Part shown: one piece after another, positions 9,001 to 12,000 of the stretch
Numbering within the stretch: position 1 is the stretch's first letter
How the letters are laid out: every line of letters starts with the position of its first letter
Source of the DNA: Candidatus Aenigmatarchaeota archaeon
Lineage (GTDB): Archaea > Aenigmatarchaeota > Aenigmatarchaeia > CG10238-14 > SpSt-28
Direction: 5' to 3'
NCBI GenBank assembly: GCA_032249395.1
Contig: JAVVFY010000006.1
Span: 1 to 43,705 of the forward strand
DNA: 43,705 nucleotides
Made by a program: the position numbers

Positions 9001-12000
9001 AACCTTTTTCTTATAAATTATTGTGCAGAAAGTGAAAAATTCTATTTTCTCACACTTTTCTTCAGGAACATAATTTATTTGTGTTCCTTGACCGACAGGC
9101 ACCAATAACATTGTGGCTCCAACTTCTTTAGCAGCTTGGGCTTTTGGGATTATTCCTCCTACAGCACCTATTGTTCCATCAGGATTTATAGTTCCGGTAA
9201 TCATAACTTTAGGATTTAGCGTTTTGTTTTCTATAGCAGCTATAGTCGCTATTGTTAGTGCGGCACCAGCAGATGGTCCTCCAACGACAGATGCATTTAG
9301 GTTTTCTAGAGAATAAACTAAGTCAAATTTCGAAAGATCAACTTTTGTTATATCTTGTGCTACTTTTTTTGCTGTCTGAATAGATTGCTGAGTGTCTATC
9401 CAAAATAGTATGTTATTTATGTCAACTAATATCTTTCCATCTCCACGCTTTATTCCAACTTTTAAAATTGTAGCCACACCTTTGCCTTCATTATCTACAG
9501 CAGGCACATAAATTTTTACAAACCTCTCTTCTGTTAAGTTTGAGGCGTTCGAAGCAAAAACTACTGTTTTCTCTTTTTCGAAATCCAAAATATTTATATA
9601 AACTAAAATAGCCAAAGTTGCAACAATAAGTAAAAAGATTGATGAAAAAATTATTTTATTTAAACGTTTCGAATTGTAGTTTTTTCTTGCCATTATAGTT
9701 TTTATTGAAAATAAAAATTAAAAAATTGTGGGTGACACGCCCTCGGTGGATAGACGTTATCTTACTACTTAATCCAACTAACCCTTCTAAACCCCGTATC
9801 TCTACAGCATTTAGTTATCTCCTTACCCTTGCTGCATTCCTGCCCTGGGGGATTCGGAGATAACTAAACCCATAGAGGCGAGGTTTCATCGTCGGGTAGT
9901 TGGGGTAGTAAGATAACGTCTACCGCCCTCGGGCTTCGGCCCGGCCATTATGGACCGTTTGCCGTGACAGGCGAGGCCCAGCCGCCCGGCCTAGTCACCC
10001 ACTATTTATATTTTGAATGCATAGAAATATATTTAAATATTTCAACTCACTATAAGTATAGCATAGGTGAAAATAATGGCAGAAGAAGAATGGGAAGAAG
10101 AGGAATTGGAAGACGAGGAATTAGAAGAAGAAATGGATGAAGAATGGGAAGAAGAAGGGGACGAGGAAGAATACTAGCATAAACATGAGATTTTTTATTT
10201 TTTTTATTTTTGTCCCTTTCTTTAGCTTTTTTAAATTTATAAGTGTTAAATCAAAACTAATAATTGGTGATAAGATGGCAGTATTCGGTGGTTTAATAGA
10301 CTTGGGAATTGCGTTTCTTCTTTCAGCAGCTATTGCAGAATATCTAAAATTCAGAAGCGTTGCAAGAAAAGGTTTTAACTGGATTATTTTAGCAGGAGTA
10401 TTTTTTCTATTCGCAGGAACGTTCCAAGTCTCCACTAGCTTAAGTGGTTATCTTGGAACTACAGTATGGAATGGAACAGCACAACTCTTTGAAATCCTCG
10501 GATGGCTTTTTGCTTTGGTAGGAACATTGTTCGTAGTATATGAAGCTTTCATCGAGAAATGAGTATTGTCTTCCCTTTTTTATTTCTTTGTAAATTTTAA
10601 GATTTTATAAAAGATCGATGGTTTTATGTATAAATTAGGCATTTAAATTTTGCTTCTTTTTTGTTCATTTTCCTTTTATACTGAGTATTCTTTCTAGCTT
10701 AATTAATGGTACAGTTGAAAGTAGAGCTATAATAGCACCAATTAAAAATACCATTTGAAAACTTATGAAATCAGCTATAACACCCGCAACTATTGCAGCT
10801 AAGGCGCTAGAATAACCCATAGCCATGTAAATATAGCCGAACTCCTCACCTCTTTTCTTTTTTGAAGTTATATCTGCCATCATAGCTTGTTGAGAAGGAG
10901 ATGCTATAGAAGAACCTATACCTAATAAAATTTGTATAAGGTAGACATGATAAATATGTGTTATAAAAATATAACCAAAGAGCCCTATTGAATTTATCAA
11001 GTTTGCGAGAATTGAAAATCTTATTCTACCATACTTATCAGCTAATTTCCCCATAAATGGCTGTAATGTTGAAAATACTATACCATAAATAGCATAGGCA
11101 ACTCCAACAGAAAGAATATTTTCTCCAATATTCTTTACGAATATTGCATATATTGGTGCTATCATTTCAACGGCGAATGTGAATAGTAGACCCCAAGCAA
11201 TTAAGAGAATTATCTTATTTTTATTTTCCATTAAAAGAGTTAAAAATTAAAATATAAAAGTTTTTGAAAGTGTATTAATTAGTGTATGAGAATGTTTAAG
11301 TTAAAAATCCTACGGAAAATCTGTAAAAGGTAGGGATCATAAGAATAACGAGGATTCTTTTCTATGTAATAAGATAAAAAGGTTATTTGCTGTAGCTGAT
11401 GGTGTTACAAATTATCCTGGTGGAAAGGAAGCTAGTAGATTGGCTATAAGTTATTTGAATGAGTTATTTGAAGGGGATTTAGTAAAAGCTCCGTATAATA
11501 CAAACTTGAAAATATTACCAGATAAGTTAACTAGTCCTAACATACGTTATACAACATTAACTTCTGTTAATATTAAAGATAAACTAATTTTGGCTTACGT
11601 TGGAGACAGCCCTGTATTTATTATTAGAAATAACACTATTGGAAAATTAACAATACCTAATACAAAAACTATTTGAAATGGAAAATTTAGAATTTAGGAC
11701 AAGAAAGATTGAGTTAAAACACAATGACTTTATATTATTATGTACAGATGGGATTTCTTCTGTTTTAAGCGAAAGTGAAATTTTGAAAGTTTTTATTTAT
11801 AAAAAAATCCAAAGGAAACTGTTAATGAGTTAATTAAGAGAGCAGAAAACAAATTTCAAGCTTATAATGATGATAAAACAGCAATAGTGATAAGAGTTTT
11901 ATAATGATTTTTTGCAGGGGGTGGGATTTGAACCCACGAAGGGACTAACCCAGCAGGTTTCTTCTTAGCACCTAAGCTTCGGCTAATTCTGAGCTTCAGC

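What a model noticed while it worked through the whole genome (the two positions that open the first line are those of the whole stretch)
9729..10001. SRP RNA has lost helix 6 and SRP19 is gone: a Bacillus-like signal recognition particle in an archaeon
The 273-nt SRP RNA keeps the Alu domain, helix 5 and the SRP54-binding helix 8 but has no helix 6. SRP19, which binds helix 6, is not found, while SRP54 and FtsY are kept (C5:39753-42149). RNA helix and protein were lost together across the order.
Evidence so far: Rfam RF01857 alignment: all 40-41 helix-6 columns deleted here and in 5 of 5 relatives from five families shown. SRP RNA found in 39 of 41 order genomes, 37 of them only 269-289 nt against a 317-position model. 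SRP19 (PF01922) in 0 of 61 phylum genomes, 58 of them >=90% complete, and 0 of 5 family genomes; the control rings in 3 archaea.
(Added by a program. Inside this text positions count along the whole contig: contig position 1 is position 1 of the stretch shown here. "Call 12" and the like, gene names such as g00115 and contig names such as C1 are that model's own, and its searches are not shown. The text may have been shortened before it was handed on; [...] marks where a part breaks off. The agent that wrote the report below was given it as the finding of a first reader that could run no searches.)

Follow-up and report, generated by a model that had tools for sequence, protein, structure and literature searches.

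The report
DPANN-wide SRP RNA without helix 6
This is the RNA core of the protein-targeting particle (SRP) of a tiny archaeon; it lacks the arm that holds the protein SRP19, that protein is missing too, and the same trimmed design runs through all six DPANN phyla sampled, so it may mark the whole group and bears on where the archaeal tree is rooted.

Summary
Confirmed, and wider than claimed. Window 9729-10001 (minus) is an archaeal SRP RNA gene (RF01857, 145.8 bits) of an Aenigmatarchaeota genome. Helix 5 runs straight into helix 8; a model-free alignment supports this (31 of 33 pairs compensated). SRP54 and FtsY are intact. SRP19 is undetectable even with a profile that found 75 of 75 held-out SRP19s. 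No helix 6 was seen in 453 SRP RNA genes from six DPANN phyla, including Altiarchaeota (most judged by length; one truncated hit unresolved), and no credible SRP19 in any genome searched; two non-DPANN controls have both. A 2026 supplementary table independently lists SRP19 at 0% in all 12 DPANN groups and in Hadarchaeota. I found no paper noting the missing helix. 'Bacillus-like' describes shape, not origin. 'Lost' is likely but depends on the root: never-gained remains open. Longer relatives carry insertions, not helix 6: 34 of 71 fit a strict tRNA-type (BHB) intron motif versus 1.5 expected by shuffling. This scan noted both features before on other genomes.

The parts
9729..10001 (-). SRP (7S-type) RNA gene, 273 nt, no helix 6
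   Evidence: RF01857 145.8 bits; fold z -9.96; contigs from RNA libraries of three hot-spring studies cover parts of it
9993..10001 (-). helix 1, 5' strand (pairs with 9729-9737)
9937..9992 (-). Alu domain helices 2-4, with UGUNR motif at 9969-9965 and complementary helix-3/helix-4 loops
   Evidence: alignment; motif position; loop complementarity read by eye from the sequence
9864..9935 (-). helix 5, 5' strand, with the 5e three-base bulge at 9888-9886
9863..9864 (-). junction where helix 6 (about 40 nt) stands in other archaea; here helix 5 continues into helix 8
   Evidence: bridged by RNA-library contigs of runs X1, X2, X3
9815..9863 (-). helix 8 with asymmetric loop, SRP54-binding symmetric loop (apical motif 9846-9830) and GGAA tetraloop (9840-9837)
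9738..9814 (-). helix 5, 3' strand
9729..9737 (-). helix 1, 3' strand, followed by a U-rich run (likely terminator, inferred)
10002..10060 (-). AT-rich upstream region with TATA-like boxes (likely promoter, inferred; the sigma-70 scan is not informative for archaea)

Best explanation
A functional, two-component archaeal SRP: one RNA plus SRP54, docking on FtsY. The RNA keeps the Alu domain and the long helix 5, and presents helix 8 as a straight continuation of helix 5, with no helix 6 branch. SHOWN: gene, fold, covariation, intact SRP54/FtsY, co-absence of helix 6 and SRP19 in six DPANN phyla. INFERRED: SRP54's M domain binds the helix-8 loops directly, as bacterial Ffh does, so no SRP19 clamp is needed; the trait arose once, at or before the last DPANN common ancestor, most likely by loss of the dispensable SRP19 together with a clean deletion of its binding hairpin (I give loss about 0.75 against never-gained). 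It is therefore a candidate shared character of DPANN including Altiarchaeota.
For: Structure; RNAalifold on a MAFFT alignment of 47 genes from four phyla predicts an unbranched stem with compensatory change in 31 of 33 pairs, 94% of cells paired versus 40-47% for slid partners and 0 of 500 shuffles. Breadth of SRP RNA hits: Aenigmatarchaeota 107 of 118 order genomes and 141 of 150 phylum sample (199 distinct), Micrarchaeota 53 of 61, Nanoarchaeota 114 of 121, Iainarchaeota 29 of 31, Altiarchaeota 54 of 61, Nanohaloarchaeota 4 of 4 aligned. All 30 full-length hits above 290 nt in the phylum samples plus the order's 292-nt gene were fetched; none has a GNAR-capped helix 6. SRP19 (NF001973): no credible hit in 198 Aenigmatarchaeota, 201 Nanoarchaeota, 151 Micrarchaeota, 61 Altiarchaeota, 4 Iainarchaeota, 3 Nanohaloarchaeota genomes; the 18 weak hits re-score at 18 bits or less with my profile against 82-129 for three true SRP19s. 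Controls with both features: Methanomethylicia G375 and Thermoplasmata G828. Independent: PMC13473441 Supplementary Data 25 gives SRP19 0% in all 12 DPANN groups and 91-100% in seven of eight other groups. SRP19 is dispensable in Haloferax and archaeal SRP54 binds RNA without it (PMC2905702 section 4).
Against: No binding or probing data. Most of the 453 genes are judged by length (full model matched in under about 290 nt), not by a viewed alignment. Genomes are incomplete bins and kin are not independent. Only two non-DPANN RNAs were aligned here, so specificity to DPANN leans on PMC2905702 (81 RNAs, 2010). Hadarchaeota are also at 0% SRP19 in the 2026 table, so the trait may not be DPANN-exclusive. 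Undinarchaeota, Huberarchaeota and small phyla were not reached for the RNA. In Thermoproteus SRP54 binds only weakly without SRP19 (PMC4731332), so independence from SRP19 is not automatic. One gene (G335) has a 43-nt hairpin at the helix-6 site; I read it as an intron, but its own shuffle p is only about 0.05. RNA-library contigs can contain DNA.
Confidence: 0.8

Rival explanations
1. Never gained: helix 6 and SRP19 were invented after DPANN split from all other archaea, so DPANN keep the older Alu-plus-helix-8 design shared with long bacterial SRP RNAs.
For: With bacteria as outgroup (no SRP19, PMC2905702; no helix 6, recalled) a DPANN root needs one gain, other roots need a gain plus a loss. 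No remnant of helix 6 in any sampled DPANN gene, including Altiarchaeota with genomes up to 2.5 Mb. Outgroup rooting has placed the root between DPANN and the rest (PMC13473441). Length (about 273 nt) is close to the B. subtilis RNA, numbered to 271 (PMC4231752).
Against: The same paper's better-fitting models favour a derived DPANN and, under its Euryarchaeota root, give SRP19 probability 1 in the archaeal ancestor and 0.3 in the DPANN ancestor (conditional on that root). Loss is cheap: the protein is dispensable and a hairpin deletes in one step. Hadarchaeota at 0% suggests SRP19 can be lost.
Confidence: 0.2
2. Repeated independent losses driven by genome reduction in each DPANN phylum, so the trait says nothing about common ancestry.
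For: SRP19 is dispensable; most DPANN genomes are small; Hadarchaeota may be a separate loss.
Against: No retention in any of six phyla; the deletion closes to the same register in four phyla aligned together; Altiarchaeota are not described as genome-reduced (PMC13473441) yet lack both.
Confidence: 0.1
3. SRP19 is present but too divergent to detect, or an unrelated protein has replaced it.
For: DPANN proteins evolve fast; genome searches use a loose first filter; one 129-aa Micrarchaeota frame scores 18 bits.
Against: Its binding site is gone from the RNA. Unfiltered profile search of this genome gives best E 0.17 while held-out SRP19s score at least 59.9 bits. The gene after rpS8e, where SRP19 sits in two Methanomethylicia, is a 240-aa protein with a P-loop motif here. 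The 129-aa frame has no SRP19 match in Pfam.
Confidence: 0.06
4. The RNA gene was acquired from a bacterium with a long (Bacillus-type) SRP RNA.
For: Same overall architecture and similar length.
Against: The archaeal model scores best despite a 41-column deletion; the Altiarchaeota, Nanoarchaeota and Aenigmatarchaeota genes reach up to 172-181 bits on it; SRP54 is of archaeal kinship. No RNA tree with bacterial long SRP RNAs was built.
Confidence: 0.03

Closest known systems
Canonical archaeal SRP (7S RNA, Rfam RF01857, with SRP19 and SRP54)
   Same: Helix 1, Alu helices 2-4 with UGUNR, long helix 5 with 5e bulge, helix 8 with SRP54 motif and GGAA loop; archaeal SRP54 and FtsY.
   Different: No helix 6, no GNAR loop for the helix 6/8 adenosine contact, no SRP19. 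PMC2905702 (2010) states SRP19 was found in all archaeal subgroups and coexists with helix 6.
Long bacterial SRP RNA (Bacillus subtilis type) with Ffh
   Same: Alu domain plus one unbranched S-domain hairpin (absence of helix 6 in bacteria is recalled, not from a call), one protein partner, about 270 nt.
   Different: Sequence fits the archaeal model best; partner is archaeal SRP54; no evidence for an HU-type Alu protein; resemblance is either convergence by loss or shared ancestry.
Permuted circular SRP RNA of Thermoproteus (PMC4731332)
   Same: Shows that the tRNA-splicing machinery can process SRP RNA at the tip of helix 8; the paper proposes an ancestor with simple BHB introns, which is what several DPANN relatives appear to carry.
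   Different: Thermoproteus keeps helix 6 and SRP19; the window's gene is neither permuted nor interrupted.
Haloferax volcanii SRP19 deletion mutant (cited in PMC2905702)
   Same: An archaeal SRP working without SRP19.
   Different: Laboratory deletion that keeps helix 6; here RNA arm and protein are both absent across whole phyla.

Membership tests
Archaeal SRP RNA (RF01857), canonical type | Score above Rfam gathering threshold over the whole model | tested here: met
   145.8 vs 96.5 bits, model 1-317
Archaeal SRP RNA (RF01857), canonical type | Alu domain with helices 1-4 and UGUNR motif | tested here: met
Archaeal SRP RNA (RF01857), canonical type | Helix 8 with SRP54-binding symmetric loop and GRRA tetraloop | tested here: met
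Archaeal SRP RNA (RF01857), canonical type | Helix 6 with GNAR tetraloop | tested here: not met
   all columns deleted; unbranched stem with covariation
Archaeal SRP particle, canonical type | SRP19 gene | tested here: not met
Archaeal SRP particle, canonical type | SRP54 with GTPase motifs and M domain, and FtsY | tested here: met
Archaeal SRP particle, canonical type | RNA binds SRP54 and supports targeting | not testable with these tools
   needs biochemistry
Long bacterial SRP RNA (Bacillus type) | Alu domain present, helix 6 absent | tested here: met
   the bacterial feature itself is recalled
Long bacterial SRP RNA (Bacillus type) | Best-scoring family within the SRP clan | tested here: not met
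   RF01857 kept; one lower-scoring clan match left out and not named
Long bacterial SRP RNA (Bacillus type) | Bacterial Ffh partner | tested here: not met
   SRP54's best relatives are archaeal; below TIGR00959 cut-off
Long bacterial SRP RNA (Bacillus type) | Alu loop lacking the U-turn nucleotide (PMC4231752) | not tested
   no bacterial long SRP RNA was aligned
Archaeal BHB introns (inserts in relatives, not in the window gene) | 4-bp helix flanked by 3-nt bulges at the insert ends | tested here: met
   34 of 71 inserts vs about 1.5 expected
Archaeal BHB introns (inserts in relatives, not in the window gene) | Excision at predicted cut sites restores the conserved RNA | tested here: met
   12 of 12 genes with an insert in the apical helix-8 motif lack it before and have the 17-nt motif after
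Archaeal BHB introns (inserts in relatives, not in the window gene) | Splicing endonuclease and RtcB ligase in the genome | tested here: inconclusive
   present in the window's genome; not searched in the intron-bearing genomes
Archaeal BHB introns (inserts in relatives, not in the window gene) | Spliced RNA observed | not tested

The most novel reading that the evidence does not exclude
Helix 6 and SRP19 are not lost in DPANN but were never there: they are an invention of the branch leading to all other archaea and eukaryotes, and DPANN (with Altiarchaeota, perhaps Hadarchaeota) keep the older bacterial-type SRP. The trait would then be a rare genomic character supporting a root of Archaea next to DPANN.
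Probability: 0.2. Interest if true: 0.92.

Novelty: new variant of a known kind. Interest (0 to 1): 0.7.

Why it matters
Reviews describe archaeal SRP as 7S RNA plus SRP19 plus SRP54. A large share of archaeal diversity instead uses a one-protein particle with an unbranched S domain. (1) It is a simple, checkable character shared by both DPANN clusters and Altiarchaeota, whose membership and position are debated; Hadarchaeota give a direct test of a recently proposed wider clade. (2) Loss versus never-gained maps onto competing archaeal roots. (3) It offers a natural minimal archaeal SRP for asking what helix 6 and SRP19 do. (4) It explains annotation misses: 40 of 53 Micrarchaeota hits fall below the Rfam cut-off. 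(5) Many relatives' genes appear to need tRNA-type splicing, the intron-bearing state that Plagens et al. proposed as ancestor of the permuted Thermoproteus gene.

Tried and rejected
Recalled idea that Thermoproteales lost helix 6 and SRP19: wrong. Long genes as retained helix 6: rejected, extra length is elsewhere or intron-like. A record titled 'uncultured Methanosarcinales' with a helix-6-less RNA (L298) as a non-DPANN exception: rejected, its genome falls in the same phylum sample as the Pacearchaeota genome, is 1.1 Mb and has no SRP19. UGAC helix-8 loop as a DPANN marker: rejected, a Thermoplasmata control and Planctomycetota share it. Alu-domain 9-19 nt hairpins as introns: rejected, 1 of 25 vs 0.97 expected. 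Helix 6 as negative control for the intron test failed as a control: my profile split it into two misplaced inserts (0 of 2). A 5e-to-helix-8 distance metric misparsed the Thermoplasmata control and is not used. BHB at the ends of the window's RNA (circular SRP RNA): no fitting motif by eye. Reaching Altiarchaeota by a published 16S probe failed (chance bacterial hits; none); a published CRISPR repeat worked. G555 has only a 5' part of an SRP RNA and no homing-endonuclease-like frame was evident nearby by eye: unresolved. The four runs laid gave no joints for tRNA introns and little cover; run shares were small (0.04-0.10) and say nothing on habitat. Cavalier-Smith and Chao (PMC7203096) holds 'SRP19' three times beyond the 300,000 characters I could read. 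No structure or complex prediction was run.

Full report
OBSERVATION. Rfam places an archaeal SRP RNA (RF01857) at window 9729-10001, minus strand, 145.8 bits against a gathering score of 96.5, with all helix-6 columns deleted between 9864 and 9863. Folded freely, helix 5 runs without a branch into helix 8; none of 200 shuffles is as stable (z -9.96). The genome is 753 kb, 89.5% complete; its SRP54 is 73-93% identical to five loci titled Ca. Aenigmatarchaeota. SRP54 and FtsY are adjacent and intact at C5:39753-42149. Contigs from RNA libraries of three studies bridge the helix 5/8 junction: X1 is identical over 9776-9914, and X2 covers 9825-10002 at depth 325 against 3-30 on its contigs over flanking coding DNA. 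Contigs cannot show strand or level and may hold DNA, so this is weak support for expression.

THE STRUCTURE IS NOT IMPOSED BY THE MODEL. A MAFFT alignment of the S-domain region of 47 genes (21 Aenigmatarchaeota-like including the window, 13 Nanoarchaeota, 5 Iainarchaeota, 8 Altiarchaeota; 47 of the 51 references listed minus 4 Micrarchaeota and one wrong reference, plus the window) gave an unbranched RNAalifold consensus with compensatory change in 31 of 33 pairs. 94% of cells pair, against 40-47% when partners are slid, and no shuffle of 500 reaches it (relatedness inflates such tests, and the structure was derived from this alignment).

SRP19. Not found in this genome by PF01922, by two SRP19 queries, or by an unfiltered search with a profile of 150 SRP19 representatives: best E 0.17, whereas a half-profile recovered 75 of 75 held-out proteins at 59.9 bits or more (these were selected by likeness to one query, so they understate true divergence). 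In two Methanomethylicia SRP19 follows rpS8e; here another gene does. PF01922 passes its cut-off in 0 of 371 phylum genomes. NF001973, whose control rings in all four archaeal controls including Sulfolobus, gave matches at E 0.01 or better in 1 of 198 Aenigmatarchaeota at least 85% complete, 1 of 201 Nanoarchaeota, 4 of 151 Micrarchaeota, 0 of 61 Altiarchaeota, 0 of 4 Iainarchaeota and 0 of 3 Nanohaloarchaeota. The six matches are partial, 16-19 bits, five inside frames over 400 aa; all 18 weak loci re-score at 18 bits or less, true SRP19s at 82-129, and the best has no SRP19 match in Pfam.

BREADTH. SRP RNA was found in 107 of 118 order genomes, 141 of 150 phylum genomes (199 distinct together), 53 of 61 Micrarchaeota, 114 of 121 Nanoarchaeota, 29 of 31 genomes of a phylum whose SRP54 relatives are named Diapherotrites, 54 of 61 Altiarchaeota and four named Nanohaloarchaeota loci: 453 genomes. 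Most genes span the whole 317-position model in 259-292 nt, too short for a 40-nt helix 6; alignments viewed for members of each phylum show the deletion. Every full-length hit above 290 nt was fetched (20 Aenigmatarchaeota plus G093, 5 Micrarchaeota, 3 Nanoarchaeota, 1 Altiarchaeota, and further shorter ones); none has a GNAR-capped helix 6. G555 is truncated and unresolved. Two non-DPANN controls, a Methanomethylicia and a Thermoplasmata genome, have helix 6 with a GGAG loop and SRP19.

MECHANISM. Shown: anatomy and gene content. Established (PMC2905702 section 4, read whole): archaeal SRP RNA binds SRP54 without SRP19, and SRP19 can be deleted in Haloferax. Inferred: SRP54 binds the helix-8 loops directly, the Alu domain is kept, and FtsY docks as usual. 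Against full independence: in Thermoproteus SRP54 binds weakly without SRP19 (PMC4731332 main section, read whole). The helix-8 tetraloop stays mostly GGAA (68 of 76 parsed Aenigmatarchaeota genes, 41 of 42 Micrarchaeota), as expected if it still serves receptor recruitment (recalled from bacterial work).

LOSS OR NEVER GAINED. PMC13473441 (passages; two supplementary rows) says the root is unsettled, recovers DPANN with Altiarchaeota as a clan, and favours a derived DPANN. Its Supplementary Data 25 lists SRP19 (arCOG01217) at 0% in 12 DPANN groups including Undinarchaeota, at 0% in Hadarchaeota, and at 91-100% in the other seven groups; under its Euryarchaeota root the probability is 1 at the archaeal ancestor and 0.3 at the DPANN ancestor. 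Its main text has no occurrence of 'SRP'. So the protein's absence is in print as a table row, unremarked. A 2026 preprint (10.64898/2026.06.17.729505, passages) proposes a clade of DPANN, Altiarchaea and Hadarchaea from protein insertions; the Hadarchaeota zero fits it, but I could not test their RNA. I favour one loss (about 0.75) over never-gained (0.2).

INSERTS IN RELATIVES. Of 183 genes analysed, 58 were long and held 71 inserts located by a sequence profile without regard to structure. A strict motif (4 of 4 pairs in the central helix, 3' bulge starting with A, intron stem or short loop) was met by 34 of 71, against about 1.5 expected from 60 shuffles each. The A rule was chosen, and matches the four clearest tRNA introns of this genome. 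Split afterwards, short Alu hairpins gave 1 of 25 (0.97 expected), the two helix-6 control pieces 0 of 2, and the rest 33 of 44 (0.53 expected), at about ten sites in three phyla; many are kin. In 12 of 12 genes interrupted in the apical helix-8 motif, the motif is absent before and canonical after excision. G335 has such an insert at the helix-6 site, while a same-genus genome is 273 nt. This genome encodes an epsilon2-type splicing endonuclease (4FZ2, E 5.5e-86; the type name is recalled), a second endonuclease gene and RtcB. The window's own gene has no intron, and no spliced read was sought.

LITERATURE. Ten searches (seven of them on SRP) found no paper describing a helix-6-less archaeal SRP RNA or an intron-bearing SRP RNA gene. 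Seen as passages only: PMC6098224, PMC10266531 (its supplement prints an expressed nanohaloarchaeal SRP RNA that by eye lacks helix 6, without comment in the passages seen), PMC4231752, PMC7987157, PMC7414124 (three supplements without SRP terms, its large data files may not be held), PMC7203096 (first 300,000 characters), PMC10143303, PMC12133352 and PMC8324899 (probe and repeat only). Subscription papers and bioRxiv supplements are not covered, and the SRPDB kinship papers were not readable here.

EARLIER SCAN NOTES. I reached this reading (notes) before opening them. At least six notes report the missing helix in other DPANN genomes and several report SRP RNA introns, two of them in Asgard archaea. 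They are unchecked AI notes and add no support; the Asgard ones warn that the introns are not DPANN-specific.

VERDICT. Real; a new variant of a known particle, DPANN-wide, with a testable bearing on DPANN unity and the archaeal root. Interest 0.7.

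Noticed in passing
L106-L110, L147, L163-L180, L249-L251, L255-L266 (Aenigmatarchaeota, Nanoarchaeota, Micrarchaeota SRP RNA genes): Inserts of 11-126 nt with tRNA-type BHB ends at about ten sites, many inside helix 8; in-silico removal restores the conserved motif.
   Followed up: yes
L254-L257, L259, L260, L262-L266 (Micrarchaeota): Eleven genes share an insert of 15-36 nt on the 3' side of helix 8 with a covarying central helix; 6 of 11 meet the strict motif, so it may be an old, conserved intron or a structural hairpin.
   Followed up: partly
   Followed up: no
L523:2031-2124 (minus), Altiarchaeota G805: A 94-nt Alu-domain-only copy lies 1.5 kb from the full SRP RNA gene: a possible Alu-like derived RNA or pseudogene.
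   Followed up: partly
L085, L093-L105, L111-L115, L181 (Aenigmatarchaeota): Several families carry an extra 9-19 nt hairpin in the Alu helix 3/4 region that replaces the UGU turn and is not intron-like.
   Followed up: partly
window 9776-9914, run X1 record 1: One contig matches 9776-9914 and then repeats 9776-9805, as if this S-domain piece were joined head to tail; a 3-base microhomology suggests a library or assembly artefact.
   Followed up: partly
window 7583-7684, 11912-12041, 12093-12180, 21145-21268, 29708-29820, 36742-36876: Six intron-containing tRNA genes in the window; several look nested or multiple, and ARAGORN's anticodon calls for some look wrong.
   Followed up: partly
G000:C2:53656-53934 and C3:60241-60486 (L323, L324): Two splicing-endonuclease genes: a 400-aa epsilon2-like one and a shorter one that by eye lacks the catalytic lysine.
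   Followed up: partly
G000:C13 (16S rRNA region): The 16S gene appears interrupted just upstream of the conserved region printed and just after it, suggesting rRNA introns.
   Followed up: no
window 10066-10180 (+): A short, extremely acidic open frame (runs of E and D) directly upstream of and divergent from the SRP RNA gene; not in the 80-aa ORF list.
   Followed up: no
L298 / L459 (G732): Record titled 'uncultured Methanosarcinales archaeon' behaves as a Nanoarchaeota genome: probable mislabel.
   Followed up: yes
L253 / L460 (G555): Only the 5' part of an SRP RNA is found mid-contig; the S domain is missing or elsewhere (split or permuted gene, or misassembly).
   Followed up: partly
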